A stretch of 64,000 nt of DNA from the human T2T-CHM13v2.0 reference genome, Homo sapiens. Below are positions 35,098 through 50,049 of the stretch, one piece after another. The notes beneath the pieces were generated by a model. It was not told the origin of the DNA. It saw only the letters and a list, made by a program, of their open reading frames with translations, and did no database searches. The translations under genes and the position numbers were made by a program. The number at the start of each line of letters is the position of its first letter. Position 1 is the first letter of the stretch. Location: NCBI RefSeq assembly GCF_009914755.1, contig NC_060941.1. One strand, 5' to 3'.

Positions 35098-42900
<7,803 letters not shown>

Positions 42901-43597
42901 ATGCTGCTTCCCAAAGGCCACCAAGGGGCCAGGGCCCTCAGCCAGGACAGAAAGGCCTCCAGTTGCCAGCCAGCCAGCCAGCTGCCAGGTGGACCAATCA
43001 TTTTCGGTTTCATGGAAACAAACCATAAATCAATGTAAGAAACAGCCAAGCCGCAGTTTCTGAACACAGCCAACGTTTACTGACCGTCCTGCGTCTTGGA
43101 CCAGCCTACTTTTGACCCAGTGAACTATTTTCACTTGAAGCCAGCACAGAAGGTTTTCAGGCCCAGGATGCTGTCTAAATCGGGTTGATGGACAAAGAGA
43201 GGCTGTTTGAGCCTCTGAGCCAGGTGAGTTTGGGATCCACAGCCCTCAGAAAACCTTCACCCCTTAGGAACAGAGACCAAACTGAAATAATGACCTGTGG
43301 AATGATTCCATGCCTGCTAAAAACTCGAGGGACAAGGAACAGACTCATAAATTATTAATTGGCCTTTGTTTATGTTTCAAAGTAAATGGTCGTTTTCTTT
43401 ATGCTAAGTCTTTGTACCTGGCACCCCCATCCATACACTTTTTTAAGGTAGGTTAGATGTGGTTAAAAATGACAGTAAACCCACCAGCAAGCAAAAATAA
43501 TCTTAGAAAGTGAGAGGAGGTCACTGAAACCTGGCCTGAGGTTTGAAGAAGATGGAGAAGAGTTATATTTATTGAGAACCGGCTCTGTGCCAGGCAC

Positions 43598-43949
43598 TAG
43601 ATGTTCCTCCACTTACGATGGGGTTACCTCCCGTTGAAACTATTGTAAGTTGAAAATATGGTAATTTGAAAATGCACTTAATACCCCTAACCTACTAAAC
43701 ATCATGGCTTAGCCTAGCCTACCTTAAACATGCTCAGAACACCTAAAGTTGAGCAAAATCATCTAACAGAAAGCCTGTTTTATAATAAAATGTTGAATAT
43801 CTCATGTAATTTATTGCATACTGTACTAAAAGTGAAAAAGAATGGTTCTATGAGTACTTAAAGTACTATTTCTACTGAATGTCACTTTTGTACCATTGTA
43901 AAGTCGAAAAATCATAAGTCAAACCATCTTAAGTTGGGAACTGTCTGTA
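43598..43949. mobile_element. Tigger3a-like DNA transposon fossil
   Basis: agatgttcctccacttacgatggggttac ... aagttgggaactgtctg terminal inverted repeats. Confidence 0.75.
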
Positions 43950-44520
43950 TTCTGGGAACTTGGGCTATAGCAGTAAAAAAGGCAAAGTCCCAGCTCTAGT
44001 GGAGCTTACACTCTGGTGAAAAGGCAGACAAGCAATGATGAAACAAGACAATTTTCTATTGTGATTAGCACTATGAAGGAAATACATGGGTAATGTGATA
44101 GAGAATGGAAGTAAGTGGCTTCTTTTGATAAAATGGTCAGGGAAGGCCTTGCTGATTAGTTAACATGTAATCTGAGATATGTGTGAATGAACAGTGATCT
44201 GGAACAGGTGCATTCTAGGCAGAAGAACAGCAAATACAAAGGGTGGATGGGAACCAGCTTTGAATGTTCAAGGAACAGAAAGAAGGCCAGTGTGGCTGGA
44301 GTGAGAGAGAAGCAATTATATAGACATGGAAGCAGAACGGAAGAGAGGAGTTAAAAGCAAGCAGGGGCCAGTCCACAGAAGGTCTTCTAAGCCACAGTAA
44401 GGAATTTGAGATTATTCTAAGGTCAACAGGAAAACATTGAAGGGTTTCCAACAGGGGAACGACATGATGCCATTTACATTTTAAAAATATCCTTTTGGCT
44501 TCTGTGTGTAGAATGTGGGA

Positions 44521-44769
44521 CAGTGGTTCTCAACTAAGTGTGATTTTGTCCCCCAGAGGATATATGGCAACCTCTAGAGACATTTTAGTTTGGTTGAAAA
44601 GTTGTTGGGAGGGGGTGGGTGGCACATTAGGTGCTACTGGCACCTAGCGGGTAGAGTCCGGGGATGCCACCTGACATCCTACAGTGCACAGGTCAACACC
44701 CTCCCCTCTGCCAACGATGAAGAATCACTGGTCCCAAAATGTCAATAGTGCCAAGGCTGAGAAACACTG
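44521..44769. mobile_element. MER20 (hAT) element inside an L2 fragment
   Basis: cagtggttctcaac ... gtcaatagtgccaaggctgagaaacactg. Confidence 0.8.
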
Positions 44770-44856
44770 ACAGTTCTAGCAGCTTGGAAAGCTAGAGCAT
44801 GGTCCATTGGGACAGCGCACCACTTTAAGGAACAGTCATGGAAGAGGGTTACCTTT

Positions 44857-45771
44857 AAAAGTAAAGAGAAATCATCAAAGAAAACAGCAACACAAACGAG
44901 ACACAATACCTACCACTCATGGGCCACTATGTAGAAATTTTAACAGTGATCTCTAAGGTAGGCTGTAATAACTGTGGCTTCCCCTATTTTAATAATGCAT
45001 TGTAACAATTGTTAACAGTGATTAAGTTTCGCAAAAGCACGTGCTGAATCAGTTAAGAAAAACTTAGGATGCAAGCTGAACAAGAGACTCCAGAGAGCCT
45101 AAAAGATGATGGAACATATGCATATATAAGAATCACAAGTAACACAATGATACACAGGTCTGGCGACGATATTTCAAACGTATGCAAGCTCATGTGAGAA
45201 GCAGAAAACCAATCAAGGACACGCTTTAAGACACAAGGAGGACACGCTTTAAGACACAAGTCCTCTCCCTTAGTCTCGCCCACGCTGGGAAGCTGGTGGG
45301 GTCGTGTTTGAATAGCAAAGATGTGCGAACAAAACAAATTAGGAAAACTGCAGAGTACCTTAGCCTTTCTAGACGCTGCAAGAGCCTTCTCTCCTCCCTG
45401 TCCAAATACTAATCCTGCCGGGAGTGAGGCCTGGAAGGAGGCCCCGGGGAAGCGGGAGAAGAGGTCTGGGCCAAGGAGAGTTCTATCTGCGAAGACTCCA
45501 GGCTCAGAGCGCTATTCACCTGTCTCCAGGGCGACGGCAGCGGCCATAACAGGCAAAGACAGCGGATCGCCACCTGCCTAACAGAGGAAAAGCCCGGAGG
45601 GGCGGGAGGAGTTCCGGAAACCACGGCTCCCTCTTGCGATCCCGGGGCACCGAGGAATATGGGGACGGTGGCTCCGCTCATCCCCGGCCAGGCCCGCTTA
45701 GCCCGCGCTGGCTCCGGAATGGCGAGGGGGCGGTGCCGGGCTGTGGGAGCGCCTGAGGGGCAGGAGTCCAG
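44857..45771. repeat. Direct local duplication of ~41262-42389 (MED31 intron 1 part, exon 1, promoter)
   Basis: Colinear similarity from aaagagaaatcatcaaagaaaacagcaacacaaac to gggagcgcctgaggggcaggagtccag. Confidence 0.95.
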
Positions 45772-46068
45772 GGAGGCAGACTTTTACCCTCAAAAGGAAT
45801 GAGTCCCAGAGCCTGGCACAAGGAAGACAAGTGTGCAAAGTTGGTGGAATGAATTCGGTGGCCTAAATGTACCTTCCTCAAATGCCACGGCTGACTGGGT
45901 CTCCTCGCCCACTTCACCCTCTCTTGCAATCCAACTTGTGAGGCGTGTGTGTGTATGTGCATGTCCGCGCTTGCCTTTAGATGGAGGTTGGCTTCCCAGC
46001 CATCCAGGCTTGCATACACGTGCATAACTCCTACCCCTACCTCGCCTGCCTGCTGTACCAGGGGTTGA

Positions 46069-46138
46069 TTCCTTCTTTCTGCGTGTTTTCTGTCCAAATC
46101 CTTTTCTGATTTGGACAGAAAACACGCAGGTGGCACAC
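46069..46138 (-). ncRNA. MIR4520-1: microRNA hairpin mir-4520-1
   Basis: Perfect 22-bp inverted repeat 46079-46100 / 46108-46129 with 7-nt loop; arm TTGGACAGAAAACACGCAG recognised as miR-4520. Confidence 0.8.
46078..46131 (+). ncRNA. MIR4520-2: microRNA hairpin mir-4520-2 (opposite-strand reading of the same palindrome)
   Basis: Same perfect stem read on the + strand. Confidence 0.75.
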
Positions 46139-48821
46139 AGTAAGCGCTTAATAAATTTTCCGGCTACCTGATCTTCTTGGAATTGAGGGCATGCTCCTGT
46201 GCGCCCCTCATTGCACAGAGCTCCCTTGTCTGGAAACTCAGCAGTCACCGGAGCCGCCGTCGGTCCTCTCGCTTTCTCTATTTTAAAAAACGTTTCAACC
46301 GCTAGCGCTGTTGGATCTCTACCTTTCAGGCTTTATCACCTGGGGTGGAATGGGTGGTGAGAGGGAAGGGATGGGGAGTCAAGACAGGAGAACGCTCTCG
46401 ATTTCCCGACCCACCTCCCGTCATATCTCATGTCATATCTACCGGCTGTTCTACCCGGTCCTGTTACTTTTTTTCTTCCGCGAAAGCCCAAATTCCCATC
46501 ACTGCTCTAGCTCTCTCCCAGATCCCCAAATCCGGATGTCTGTCTCAGGGAACGTCAAAGGAACATGCCCGGATGAGGTCCTCCCCTCTCCCCACCTCCC
46601 AGCCCTCTCCTCCTGCCTCCCCCGGTGTCACCCGCGCCTCCTTCCTCTCTTCACCTCCCTCTAAACAAGAATCCGGCGCAGTCAGTTCTAGACCCTGAGC
46701 ATCTCCCGCGTCCCTGCCCAATATCCGTCCCGCCCCCGACCGCCCGCGTCCTCTTGAACCTGCGGAGCCCTGCCCCCCGCACTCCACGCCCTTGCTCCGA
46801 GCTTCCGAGAAAGCGGGGCAAAGGGAGCCAGAAAGAGAGAAAATGCGCACGGAGCAGGTGGCCCCGCGACTCCATGGTGAGGGGACGGGGCACGGAAGGT
46901 GGAAAGGTGCGCTCCCTCCTCCCTTTTTTCCTCCCTATGGTGGGCAGTTGGTGACACACAGTAAACGCTCAATAAATGTTTCCGCTACTCGATCTCCTTG
47001 GAATTAAGGGGATGCTCCTGAGCGCCCCTCATTCCACACAGCTCTGGTGTCTGGAAACTGCGGTCGCCCGAGCGGTCGTCGGTCCTCCCGGTTTCTCTAT
47101 TTTAAAAGCCATTTCAAACCTCCAGCGGCCTCGCCACCTCTGCTGCAGACCTTCCAAGCCCTTCTGAAGCCGGAATGAGTTCTCCCTAATTCACTCCCCC
47201 TGCTTAACACATTCGAACGGCTCCCGCTTGTTCTCGGGACCAAATCCAAAGCCCCTGGCGCCACCTTCGAGAGCCTCCGGACCTGCTGACCCCCCACACC
47301 TGGGCTCTGAGCTCCAGATCCAAGATGCTGCTCGCCCTCCCTTCCCCGCCGCTCTCTTTCTGCGCGCCTTTCCCCTGCCTTCCCTTTCTGTCACTCTCCC
47401 TGGCTGAGCCCTCTCCGCCTCCAGGTCTCCGGGAAGGTTGTCCCCAGGCCGGTGGGGCCCCTGCAGGTCCTCAGCCTCGGGCGGGGTGGGGTGGGGGGGT
47501 CGCACAGCGGGAATTGCCACCAGTGCGTCCCGGCTCCACAGCGCGCTCGTCCAGGGCGCGGCAGCGCTCAGCCCAGCGCTTGGCACAGTCAGTGACCACA
47601 GGGAGGAGAAAGTGAAGGCAGGAGCGCACCTTCCCACCTGCCGTCCCCGTCCCCTCAGAACCGAGTCCTGGGGCCACCTGCTCGGCGCGGTCCCTCTCTC
47701 TCTGGCTCAGTCCCCCCACCCCGATACGTCTCCTCCTCTCAGAGGCTCCGAGGAAGGGCGTGGGCGCTGGAGGGAGCAGGGCTCAGCCGGGTGCCCCTCC
47801 CGCCAGGCCCCACCGGGGCTGAGCCTCTTCTGTCGCCCGCAGGAGACAGAACTCAAGGTGGAAGTACCGGAGTACCTGGGGCCGCTGCTGTTTGTGAAAC
47901 TGCGTTAACGTCACTTCCTTCAGGTTCTGCAGCTGGATCTCCGTGTAGGGCCCCGGAGCCGGGGACGAGGTCAGGTTCCCTTGTTACCGCTGGGTGGAGG
48001 GCAACGGCGTCCTGAGCCTGCCTGAAGGCACCAGTAAGCGCGGGGCTGGGGGTGTCAGGAGGCCTCTGGGGTGGGAGAGAAGCTGGGGGGATGCGCGTGT
48101 GGAGAAGAGGGCGCAGGATGGGGGTGCTGGAACCTGGAGCGCAGGGCTCTTTGGGAGTGTCGAAGGGGCGGTGGCTGCAGCTGGCACAAAGTGGCTGGAG
48201 CCTGGGGGAGGGGCGTGATGCTGAAGAGGCAGGGGTCACACAGAAGGACGGAGTGATGAGGCTCTCCTGGCAGGGGCGAGAAGAGGAGCTCACCAAAAGT
48301 CACTGGCCAAGCCCTCCTCTGGCCTTCTAGGCCGTACTGTGGGCGACGACCCTCGAGGCCTGTTCCAGAAACACCAGGAAGAGGAGCTGGAAGAGAGAAG
48401 GAAGTTGTACCGGTGAGCCCTCCTCCCCTGACCCCACGTGAGCTGCTGATGCTTCCAGCACCCACGCCTGATTTCCTTCCTGCCCTACAGGTGGGGAAAC
48501 TGGAAGGATGGGTTAATTCTGAATGTGGCTGGGGCAAAACTATGTGACCTCCCTGTGGATGAGCAATTTCTGGAAGACAAGAGTGTTGACTTTAAGGTTT
48601 CGCTGGCCAAAGGGTGAGAGCAAGGGGAGGCTGGGTGAGAGGGAGGTGTCCTGGTCTAGTGGAAGCCAAGGGGCTTATGGGCTGCACTGCACTGCACTGG
48701 ACCGGCTCAAGGTCGGTGCCTGTGGCTGTCATGTTGGAGTCTCAGAATGATGCTCAAACCCTTTGCCCCATTCTGTCCTGAAGGCTGGCCGACCTCACTA
48801 TCAAAAACTAAATGTTCTGAC

Positions 48822-49144
<323 letters not shown>

Positions 49145-50049
49145 TCAACCAGATTTTCTGCTGTGGCCAGAGCAAGCTGGCTGGTCAGTCCCCCACCCCA
49201 ATATGTCTCCCAGGACGCTTACCCCCAGATCCCACCCAACCCAGGGGAATTGAAAGAAGCAGGGTGGGGAGACCAGAGACTTGGGTCCCTCTGGTGGGCT
49301 GGAGTCAAGGGGGCATGGTTGGTGGGGTTGGAAGGACCAAGAGCTCAGATCCCACAACTTGCTCAACAACTGCCTTCCCCAGAGCGCGTGCGGGACTCCT
49401 GGAAGGAAGATGCCTTATTTGGGTACCAGTTTCTTAATGGCGCCAACCCCATGGTGCTGAGGCGCTCTGCTCACCTTCCTGCTCGCCTAGTGTTCCCTCC
49501 AGGCATGGAGGAACTGCAGGCCCAGCTGGAGAAGGAGCTGGAGGTATGGACATCAGAGCCCTGAGGAAGCTCAGCAGTGAAGTGGGGTGGCCTAGTGCCA
49601 ATGATGCTGCTGCGGGACCCACTGTGGGCCTGGCTTGCTGCCAGCCAGCAAGGACGGATTCTGCAGGAGAGGTCCTGAGGGACCCTGGAGAAGCTCAGCT
49701 GCTCGGCCTCCTTCCCACACGAGAGTAGCTGCGGAGGGAGGGCGTGCAAGATGGAATGGTTGATAGAAACAAGGTCAAATGAAGAAATGTGACTGGCCCC
49801 TGGTGCTAGGGATTCGGGGAGTGTGCAGAGTAAGAGAGTCAGGATCAGAGTGCTGTGGCTGTTCATCAGGAGGCGATATGGAACAACAGAGAGGAAATTC
49901 ATGGGATTAAGGGCAGATAGGCTTGGATGTGAATCCTGGTTCTGCTATTTGTAAGCTGTGTGACCTCAGGCAAAATACCCAGCCTCTCTGATTATCTGTT
50001 TCCTCTTCTGTGCAACTGAGGCTCGTTCAACTAGGTATAAAAATTATAA

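What the first reader, a model, noticed from the sequence alone, without database searches (positions are those of the whole stretch)
45520..45547. Duplicate MED31 first exon with intact ATG, phase and splice donor, 3.4 kb upstream of the real one
Seen: the duplicated block keeps a 28-nt coding exon ATG GCC GCT GCC GTC GCC CTG GAG ACA G|GTGAAT (MAAAVALET, vs [15 protein letters not shown] at 42157-42130), same strand and phase, plus the TTCCGGAA ETS palindrome (45612-45619) and CpG-rich flank. Inference: it could act as an alternative first exon splicing to MED31 exon 2 (acceptor 41064-41063), giving a full-length M7L MED31 isoform whose primary transcript runs antisense through C17orf100; or it could be a decoy promoter.
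Basis: partly seen in the sequence, partly recalled or inferred. Interest (0 to 1): 0.7.

Follow-up and report, generated by a model that had tools for sequence, protein, structure and literature searches.

The report
Duplicated MED31 promoter and first exon
A 0.9-kb old copy of the MED31 promoter, first exon and start of intron 1 sits 3.4 kb upstream of the real one; it could still encode the protein's start on paper, but it is best read as a leftover promoter whose DNA methylation differs between people by genotype, not as a proven second start of the gene.

Summary
Window 44853-45771 is the only relative in the T2T genome of 41259-42389, the MED31 promoter half, exon 1 and 5' intron 1 (89% identity over 876 aligned columns). 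The copy keeps the ATG, the 28-nt coding exon, the phase and a GT donor that is weakened at +5. Spliced to exon 2 it would give MED31 with one change, M7L. The block stops about 200 bp short of exon 2. Its upstream edge is a breakpoint joined, by 2-3 nt of microhomology, to an unrelated duplicon with paralogs on chr17 at 4.53 Mb and chr9 at 105 Mb. CpG density matches the active original.

Five published hg19 CpG positions place the copy inside the recurrent "MIR4520A/B" variably methylated region. One probe lies in the copy's coding exon. Another has heritability 0.927 and a cis SNP 429 bp away, which showed no expression association in blood. Mean blood methylation at three probes in the copy is about 0.5-0.8. 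The RefSeq table supplied lists one MED31 transcript and no gene at the copy.

Best reading: a relic orphan promoter, silenced or open by genotype, adding little or nothing to MED31 mRNA. Its use as an alternative first exon could not be tested: no RNA-seq or CAGE data were available here.

The parts
44853..45771 (-). Copy B: partial paralog of the MED31 5' end (promoter half, exon 1, about 640 bp of intron 1)
   Evidence: aligns to 41259-42389 and to nothing else in the genome. 783 of 876 ungapped columns are identical; K2P 0.115.
45520..45547 (-). Copy of the 28-nt coding part of MED31 exon 1 (MAAAVALET, phase 1)
   Evidence: 25 of 28 bases identical to 42130-42157. In frame with exon 2; the only protein change is M7L.
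45514..45519 (-). Splice donor GTGAAT (original: GTGAGT), G->A at +5
45548..45624 (-). Equivalent of the MED31 5'UTR. No ATG; 80.5% identical to the original.
   Evidence: Position 45624 aligns to the RefSeq TSS at 42234.
45612..45619 (.). TTCCGGAA palindrome (two overlapping ETS cores) at the TSS-equivalent, inside a 26-nt run identical in both copies
45625..45771 (-). Upstream promoter part of the copy. The distal GC box is kept; the proximal GC-box cluster and one ETS core of the original have no counterpart; one TTCCGG is found only in the copy.
44853..45519 (-). Copy of the 5' part of MED31 intron 1, without the Alu that the original carries
   Evidence: intron K2P 0.094; 0.080 at non-CpG sites
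45403..45842 (.). CpG-island-like stretch around the copy (440 bp, GC 0.63, o/e 0.64, 28 CpG)
   Evidence: The stretch around the original runs about 42027-43037.
45541..45542 (.). CpG of array probe cg24686902 (hg19 6558231), inside the copy's codons 2-3
   Evidence: One search gives the position; the offset hg19 = window + 6,512,690 is derived.
45675..45676 (.). CpG of probe cg08103988 (hg19 6558365), in the copy's stretch aligned to the original's GC-box cluster
45715..45716 (.). Peak CpG of the regional mQTL (363 bp upstream of the MIR4520-2 start, hg19 6558405). This CpG exists only in the copy.
45750..45751 (.). CpG of probe cg21358336 (hg19 6558440): h2 0.927, top SNP rs2040847
45769..45772 (.). 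Breakpoint junction between the copy and an unrelated duplicon, with 2-3 nt of microhomology
41259..42389 (-). Original block A (MED31 promoter half, exon 1, 5' intron 1). It ends 2 bases before the C17orf100 start at 42391 and 197 bases before exon 2.
   Evidence: and the gene table in the finding
41533..41766 (+). 5'-truncated Alu with poly(A) inserted in the original after the duplication. Its flanking direct repeat GAAGCACCAG occurs once in the copy.
40985..41062 (-). MED31 exon 2, the acceptor the copy's donor would have to reach (4457-nt intron, antisense through C17orf100)
   Evidence: and the gene table

Best explanation
Copy B is a 919-bp partial paralog of the MED31 5' end: the MED31-side half of the MED31/C17orf100 bidirectional CpG-island promoter, exon 1, and the first ~640 bp of intron 1. 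It arose in a local duplication tied to a segmental-duplication rearrangement. By inference this happened a few tens of millions of years ago in primates. B is the derived copy, because its upstream edge is a breakpoint fused to a truncated foreign duplicon. It survives as a short orphan CpG island (about 440 bp) with intact coding, phase and donor signals. Today it is the core of the strongly heritable, variably methylated region that methylation studies label MIR4520A/B. Depending on the cis haplotype the element is methylated or not. Inferred: on methylated alleles it is silent. On unmethylated alleles the conserved ETS/TSS core may fire weakly. Its contribution to MED31 mRNA is minor or nil, and the protein would be practically unchanged (M7L).
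For: Structure:
- There are only two copies in the genome.
- A carries an Alu with a target-site duplication that B lacks, so the Alu came after the duplication.
- Homology of the right flank to its paralogs on chr17 4.53 Mb and chr9 105.08 Mb begins at 45769/45770. Those two paralogs stay alike beyond that point, so the duplicon is truncated at the junction with B.
- The 2463 bases between A and B have no relative in 45772-50000.
- Divergence: K2P 0.115 overall, 0.094 in the intron, 0.080 at non-CpG intron sites.
- No sign of gene conversion: the longest identical run is 46, against about 40 expected.

Competence on paper.

CpG retention: promoter plus exon holds 22 CpG in A (o/e 0.74) and 23 in B (o/e 0.77). 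Of 48 aligned CpG positions, 25 are shared, 10 are in A only and 13 in B only.

Epigenetic state:
- 5 of 5 published hg19 CpG positions land on the C of a CpG in the window under one offset. The pyrosequencing primer of PMC9112484 matches 46099-46124 next to the CpG at 46125.
- cg21358336 is among the 10 most heritable probes: h2 0.927, top SNP 429 bp away, P 1.3e-91.
- A bisulfite-sequencing regional mQTL covers hg19 6558016-6558815, which is window 45326-46125.
- Mean blood beta at the three probes inside B is 0.48-0.83.
- The probes are B-specific: at most 44 of 50 flanking bases match A.

Lack of output:
- The RefSeq table lists one MED31 transcript and no gene at B.
- PMC4072933 states that none of the nine other top SNPs, a set that includes rs2040847, was associated with gene expression.
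- There is no MED31 retrocopy in the genome that could record past use of the exon.
Against: - CpG loss in B is no greater than in the constitutively active original. This argues that B has stayed unmethylated in the germ line for most of its history, as working CpG-island promoters do.
- The 26 bases around the TSS-equivalent, the ATG and the donor GT are all intact.
- Methylation is incomplete and lower in saliva: 17-35% at the neighbouring MIR4520 CpG. Open alleles therefore exist.
- H3K4me3 peaks were assigned to the miR4520-1/-2 promoters in MCF10A and MCF7 cells. I saw table rows only, without coordinates.
- The expression test in PMC4072933 used arrays on blood lymphocytes and could not see a first-exon switch.
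- Absence from RefSeq is weak evidence.
- No outgroup was available, so I cannot say which copy changed.
Confidence: 0.58

Rival explanations
1. One reading: B is a working alternative promoter and first exon. Minus-strand transcripts start near 45624, use the GTGAAT donor at 45519 and splice to exon 2 at 41062. This makes full-length M7L MED31, at least on unmethylated haplotypes or in particular tissues, and the transcript runs antisense through C17orf100 and over the canonical promoter.
For: - The frame, ATG, donor and a UTR free of upstream ATGs are all in place.
- The TSS core is conserved.
- CpG retention equals that of the active copy.
- The element meets CpG-island criteria.
- Methylation is polymorphic, not fixed.
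- Exon 1 of the real gene has no annotated acceptor, so exon 2 is the first annotated acceptor downstream.
Against: - The RefSeq table gives no such transcript.
- The donor lacks G at +5.
- The proximal GC-box cluster (3 of A's 4 GC boxes) and 1 of A's 3 ETS cores have no counterpart in B.
- The would-be intron carries 2 AATAAA and 2 ATTAAA on the minus strand and must read through an active CpG-island promoter.
- Mean blood methylation is 0.48-0.83.
- No expression association was reported for the top cis SNP.
- The supplements held for a promoter-usage QTL study do not mention MED31: 0 of 3 files.
Confidence: 0.2
2. B works mainly in the other direction. As half of a bidirectional promoter it drives plus-strand transcription into the adjoining duplicon, giving the primary transcript of MIR4520-2 (46079-46131) and perhaps upstream ALOX15P1 RNA.
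For: - MIR4520-2 starts 308 bases beyond B's edge on the plus strand.
- B and MIR4520 are methylated together in one region, window 45326-46125 (probes).
- H3K4me3 peaks were assigned to the miR4520 promoters in two cell lines.
- PMC7477873 cites small-RNA data saying miR-4520a is abundant in skin (passage only).
Against: - The block ends 2 bases before the C17orf100 start site of the original. B therefore lacks that TSS and the ~600 bp CpG-rich body downstream of it.
- RefSeq starts ALOX15P1 at 48348, which is 2.6 kb away.
- No transcript data were seen.
Confidence: 0.12
3. B makes no RNA of consequence but acts as DNA. It could be a decoy or competitor for ETS-type factors, or an enhancer- or insulator-like element whose methylation state tunes the neighbouring MED31/C17orf100 promoter.
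For: The ETS palindrome and the distal GC box are conserved. B lies 3.4 kb from the real promoter. Its methylation is variable.
Against: No expression association was reported for the top mQTL SNP in blood. Nothing in the sequence singles out this reading.
Confidence: 0.05

Closest known systems
Alternative first exons that arose by duplicating promoter plus first exon upstream of shared exons (for example the UGT1A and clustered protocadherin variable first exons; recalled, not looked up here)
   Same: A duplicated promoter and first coding exon on the same strand and in the same phase, upstream of the common exon 2.
   Different: There are only two copies. The distal one has no annotated transcript, a weakened donor, and heritable partial methylation. 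The encoded difference is a single residue.
Gene fragments and orphan CpG islands at segmental-duplication junctions
   Same: A truncated piece of a gene's 5' end fused by microhomology to an unrelated duplicon. It meets CpG-island criteria away from any annotated gene start.
   Different: The fragment lies only 3.4 kb from its parent, in the same orientation and upstream of it, so in principle it can still feed the parent's exons.
Genotype-controlled variably methylated promoters (cis-mQTL or haplotype-dependent methylation). The same methylation papers list PM20D1, ZFP57-upstream and VTRNA2-1.
   Same: Very high heritability, a nearby top SNP, coordinated methylation of many neighbouring CpGs, and recurrence in unrelated methylation studies.
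   Different: Here the variable element is a paralog of a housekeeping promoter with no gene of its own. The passages I saw label it MIR4520A/B or intergenic and do not mention the MED31 homology.

Membership tests
Alternative first exon of MED31 | Start codon, reading phase and open frame into exon 2 | tested here: met
   131 codons, with only M7L different.
Alternative first exon of MED31 | Usable 5' splice site | tested here: inconclusive
   CAG|GTGAAT against CAG|GTGAGT. The G->A at +5 weakens U1 pairing. No splice-site scoring model was available.
Alternative first exon of MED31 | Own transcription start (capped 5' ends) | not testable with these tools
   No CAGE or RNA data. Only the sequence around the aligned TSS is conserved.
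Alternative first exon of MED31 | Observed splice junction to exon 2, or an annotated transcript | tested here: not met
   The RefSeq table in the finding lists 1 of 1 MED31 transcript, starting at 42234, and no gene over 44106-46068. Junction reads themselves were not testable.
Segmental-duplication junction fragment | Paralogous to a source locus and truncated on both sides | tested here: met
Segmental-duplication junction fragment | Abuts another duplicon at a breakpoint where that duplicon's own homology is cut off | tested here: met
   homology starts at 45769/45770; the paralogs continue beyond; 2-3 nt of microhomology.
CpG island | At least 200 bp, GC at least 0.5, observed/expected CpG at least 0.6 | tested here: met
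   45403-45842, 440 bp, GC 0.63, o/e 0.64.
Heritable variably methylated region (cis-mQTL) | Inter-individual methylation variation explained by nearby genotype | tested here: met
   From the literature, mapped here by coordinates: h2 0.927, top SNP 429 bp away; regional mQTL ranked 7th of 12,283 regions. 5 of 5 positions fall on window CpGs.

The most novel reading that the evidence does not exclude
The widely reported 'MIR4520A/B' methylation signal is really a genetically switched second MED31 promoter. On the unmethylated haplotype the copy fires and splices to exon 2, making M7L MED31. Its transcript runs antisense across C17orf100 and the canonical promoter. Carriers would then differ in how this Mediator subunit and its neighbour are transcribed.
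Probability: 0.12. Interest if true: 0.6.

Novelty: new member of a known kind. Interest (0 to 1): 0.4.

Why it matters
MED31 is a conserved Mediator subunit, and a second promoter under genetic and epigenetic control would be a concrete regulatory polymorphism. The firmer result is practical. A cluster of array probes recurs as a 'hit' in unrelated methylation studies of depression, folate, adiposity, assisted reproduction, atherosclerosis and atrial fibrillation, where it is labelled MIR4520A/B or intergenic. Three of these probes (cg24686902, cg08103988, cg21358336) sit in a duplicated MED31 promoter and exon 1, and a fourth (cg08750459) sits in the adjoining MIR4520 hairpin. The methylation there is almost entirely set by cis genotype. 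That gives the region an identity and a testable target, the junction to MED31 exon 2. It also warns against environmental readings of those hits.

Tried and rejected
- Simple tandem duplication of 41259-44852: rejected as sufficient. The 2463 bases after A have no counterpart after B. A tandem duplication followed by a deletion remains possible.
- Gene conversion between the copies: no support. The longest identical run is 46, against about 40 expected.
- Array cross-hybridisation between the copies as the cause of the methylation signal: unlikely. At most 44 of 50 flanking bases match (the usual 47-of-50 criterion is recalled). Bisulfite sequencing shows the same region.
- Retrocopies as fossils of past exon use: none exist. 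A 591-base exon-4 query hit only itself, and the B query found no third copy.
- Literature:
  - MED31 + C17orf100 gave 1 paper. Its two CpGs lie about 3 kb away at hg19 6,555,443 and 6,555,742 and are annotated MED31; C17orf100, so they belong to the original's side, not to the copy.
  - A five-term search on alternative promoters listed 15 of 1,163 papers, none of which contains MED31.
  - C17orf100 alone: 16 papers, 15 listed, none on the promoter by title or abstract.
  - MED31 + mQTL: 0 papers.
  - mir-4520 + template switching: 0 papers.
  - Promoter-usage QTL supplements: MED31 found in 0 of 3 files.
  - Supplements of the assisted-reproduction study: only gene-ontology rows with MED31, no coordinates.
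- Promoter versus intron divergence: the promoter plus exon is more diverged (non-CpG K2P 0.141 against 0.080; 25 of 196 against 44 of 582 sites). Without an outgroup this cannot be assigned to either copy, so I draw no conclusion about selection.

Full report
**1.

On the minus strand, 45547..45520 reads ATGGCCGCTGCCGTCGCCCTGGAGACAG and is followed by GTGAATAG. The annotated MED31 exon 1 coding part, 42157..42130, reads ATGGCCGCTGCTGTCGCTATGGAGACAG and is followed by GTGAGTAG. 25 of 28 coding bases agree. The three differences are two synonymous GCT/GCC changes and ATG->CTG at codon 7.

TTCCGGAA is at 45619..45612. Joining the copy's exon to exons 2-4 by coordinates gives a 131-codon open frame that differs from MED31 only by M7L. 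The 77-base equivalent of the 5'UTR has no ATG.

**2. Extent and uniqueness of the duplication.**

- Self-comparison of the window gives A 41259-42389 <-> B 44853-45771 in two pieces. A more sensitive search adds nothing on either side.
- A search of the whole 3.1-Gb assembly with B returns only B itself and the two pieces of A.
- The split in A is a 234-base, 5'-truncated Alu with a poly(A) tail (41533-41766). It is flanked by the direct repeat GAAGCACCAG, which occurs once in B. The Alu therefore entered A after the duplication.
- With the Alu removed, 783 of 876 ungapped columns are identical (58 transitions, 35 transversions, 54 gap columns; K2P 0.115).
- The block covers 155 bases upstream of the RefSeq TSS, the 5'UTR, the 28-base coding part and about 640 bases of intron 1.
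- It ends 197 bases before exon 2 and 2 bases before the C17orf100 start at 42391.
- B thus holds only the MED31-side half of the bidirectional CpG island. The island-like stretch is about 440 bases around B (45403-45842) and about 1 kb around A (42027-43037).

**3. How the copy got there.**

The sequence just beyond B's upstream edge has paralogs at chr17 4.528-4.532 Mb (minus strand) and chr9 105.079-105.081 Mb. Homology to both begins at 45769/45770, while B ends at 45771. The two paralogs remain similar to each other for hundreds of bases past that point. The window's copy of that duplicon is therefore cut off exactly where it meets B, with 2-3 bases (CAG/AG) shared at the joint.

The 2463 bases between A and B (C17orf100 and its flank) are unique apart from one dispersed repeat.

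B is therefore the derived copy, a junction fragment of a complex rearrangement. Two routes are possible, and I could not tell them apart:
- a templated insertion during the arrival of the duplicon, or
- a 3.6-kb tandem duplication followed by a deletion.

Age: the intron part has K2P 0.094, or 0.080 at non-CpG sites. Against recalled calibrations (human-macaque about 6-7%, human-marmoset about 11-12%), this puts the event at very roughly 30-50 million years ago. That figure is an inference. There is no sign of later gene conversion: the longest identical run is 46, against about 40 expected.

**4. State of the promoter sequence.**

- The 26 bases around the position aligned to the TSS, including the ETS palindrome, are identical in both copies.
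- ETS cores: 3 in A and 3 in B. The two in the palindrome are shared. A's core at 42249 has no counterpart in B, and B's at 45719 has none in A.
- GC boxes: 4 in A and 2 in B, with 1 shared. The cluster at 42277-42290 is absent from B.
- The donor has A for G at +5. No splice-site scoring model was available.
- The would-be intron to exon 2 is 4457 bases. It runs antisense through C17orf100 and over the real promoter, and it carries 2 AATAAA and 2 ATTAAA on the minus strand.
- In favour of B: its promoter plus exon holds 23 CpG (o/e 0.77), against 22 (o/e 0.74) in A. Of 48 aligned CpG positions, 25 are shared, 10 are in A only and 13 in B only. B has lost CpGs no faster than a constitutively unmethylated island. 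This suggests it was largely unmethylated in the germ line over its history. Caveats: small numbers and no outgroup.

**5. What is published about this spot.**

The MIR4520-1 and MIR4520-2 start positions given in PMC12554007 (table rows) fix the relation hg19 = window + 6,512,690. With that single offset, 5 of 5 published CpG positions fall on the C of a CpG in the window:

| CpG | hg19 position | Window position | Location |
|---|---|---|---|
| cg24686902 | 6558231 | 45541 | inside the copy's codons 2-3 |
| cg08103988 | 6558365 | 45675 | copy's promoter |
| regional-mQTL peak CpG | 6558405 | 45715 | copy's promoter |
| cg21358336 | 6558440 | 45750 | copy's promoter |
| cg08750459 | 6558815 | 46125 | MIR4520 hairpin |

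The pyrosequencing primer in PMC9112484 is the bisulfite form of 46099-46124, which confirms the last row.

- PMC4072933 (table and passages) lists cg21358336 among the ten most heritable probes of the 450K array. It has h2 0.927, and the top SNP is rs2040847 at hg19 6558011 (window 45321, inside B's intron part), P 1.3e-91. The paper states that none of the nine other top SNPs, a set that includes this one, was associated with gene expression in blood lymphocytes.
- PMC12554007 ranks the MIR4520-2 region 7th of 12,283 for regional mQTL strength. The effect spans hg19 6558016-6558815, which is window 45326-46125: B's exon and promoter through to MIR4520.
- Mean beta values in blood leukocytes in two groups of 7 people (PMC6976716):
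  - cg24686902: 0.81 and 0.56
  - cg08103988: 0.83 and 0.48
  - cg21358336: 0.80 and 0.51
- In saliva the MIR4520 CpG was 17-35% methylated (PMC7477873).
- The same probes recur as top 'hits' or regions in unrelated studies.
- The probes are specific to B: at most 44 of 50 flanking bases match A.
- In the passages I saw, the region is called MIR4520A/B, intergenic or a miRNA promoter. The term MED31 occurs 0 times in six of these papers. PMC10176895 lists MED31 only as a gene annotation of the region.
- I found no paper that describes the duplication. I read passages, not whole texts, and supplements were only partly available.

**6. Reading.**

*Shown:* B is a real, old, unique partial paralog of the MED31 5' end at a duplicon junction. 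It is coding-competent on paper. It has kept CpG-island character. In present-day humans it is methylated to a degree set by cis genotype.

*Inferred:* it behaves as an orphan promoter that is shut on methylated haplotypes and at most weakly active on open ones. It contributes little or nothing to MED31 mRNA.

My odds are about 0.58 for this reading, 0.20 for a real but minor or conditional alternative first exon, 0.12 for a mainly plus-strand role toward MIR4520-2 or ALOX15P1, and 0.05 for a DNA-level decoy or regulatory role. The decisive data (junction reads, CAGE, haplotype-resolved RNA) were out of reach here.

**7. Novelty.**

Duplicated promoter-plus-first-exon units, gene fragments at duplication junctions and genotype-controlled methylated promoters are all known kinds, so this is a new member of known kinds. 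The useful new link is that the recurrent MIR4520A/B methylation region is a MED31 promoter/exon-1 paralog. That link turns an anonymous signal into a specific, checkable hypothesis.

Noticed in passing
window 46079-46129 (MIR4520-1/-2): The miRNA hairpin is a perfect 22-nt inverted repeat with a 7-nt loop. Both paralogs of this duplicon (chr17 4.53 Mb, chr9 105.08 Mb) carry only the left arm, each with one mismatch, and the loop-like CTTTTCT. About 565 bases that the window lacks follow, and the window resumes at GTGGCACACAG.... The hairpin therefore looks as if a ~565-base stretch was replaced by an inverted copy of the adjacent 22 bases (fold-back or template-switch origin). A search for mir-4520 plus 'template switching' found 0 papers.
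   Followed up: partly
window 45770-46107 versus 46129-48826: The two sides of the MIR4520 hairpin differ sharply in similarity to the chr17 4.53 Mb paralog: 82% on the left and 96-98% on the right. This suggests two layers of duplication, or a later conversion, that meet at the hairpin.
   Followed up: no
window 41533-41766: A 5'-truncated Alu with a 17-A tail and the direct repeat GAAGCACCAG lies in MED31 intron 1, antisense to the gene. It is absent from the paralogous copy. By recalled diagnostic bases it looks like a young (Y-type) Alu. This was not tested.
   Followed up: partly
window 42389-42391: The duplicated block ends 2 bases before the annotated start of the single-exon gene C17orf100. 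One breakpoint therefore fell exactly between the two divergent start sites of the bidirectional promoter (and the gene table).
   Followed up: no
window 43599-43953: A dispersed repeat of about 350 bases lies inside the C17orf100 3' region. The first look found thousands of candidate relatives in the genome (3680 candidates; the 39 scored outside the window are 78-81% identical). NCBI's list of longest masked stretches in the finding does not include it.
   Followed up: no
window 48348-48821 (ALOX15P1 exons 1-2): The first two ALOX15P1 exons lie in sequence that also has a paralog on chr9 at 105.08 Mb (79-89% identical). The 5' end of this 'ALOX15 pseudogene' transcript may therefore not derive from ALOX15 itself.
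   Followed up: no
about 3 kb on the MED31/C17orf100 side of copy B (hg19 chr17:6,555,443 and 6,555,742): The two 'MED31' CpGs linked to prenatal mercury exposure (PMC10879652) lie about 3 kb from copy B and are annotated MED31; C17orf100. They belong to the original's side, not to MED31 exons or to the duplicated copy.
   Followed up: partly
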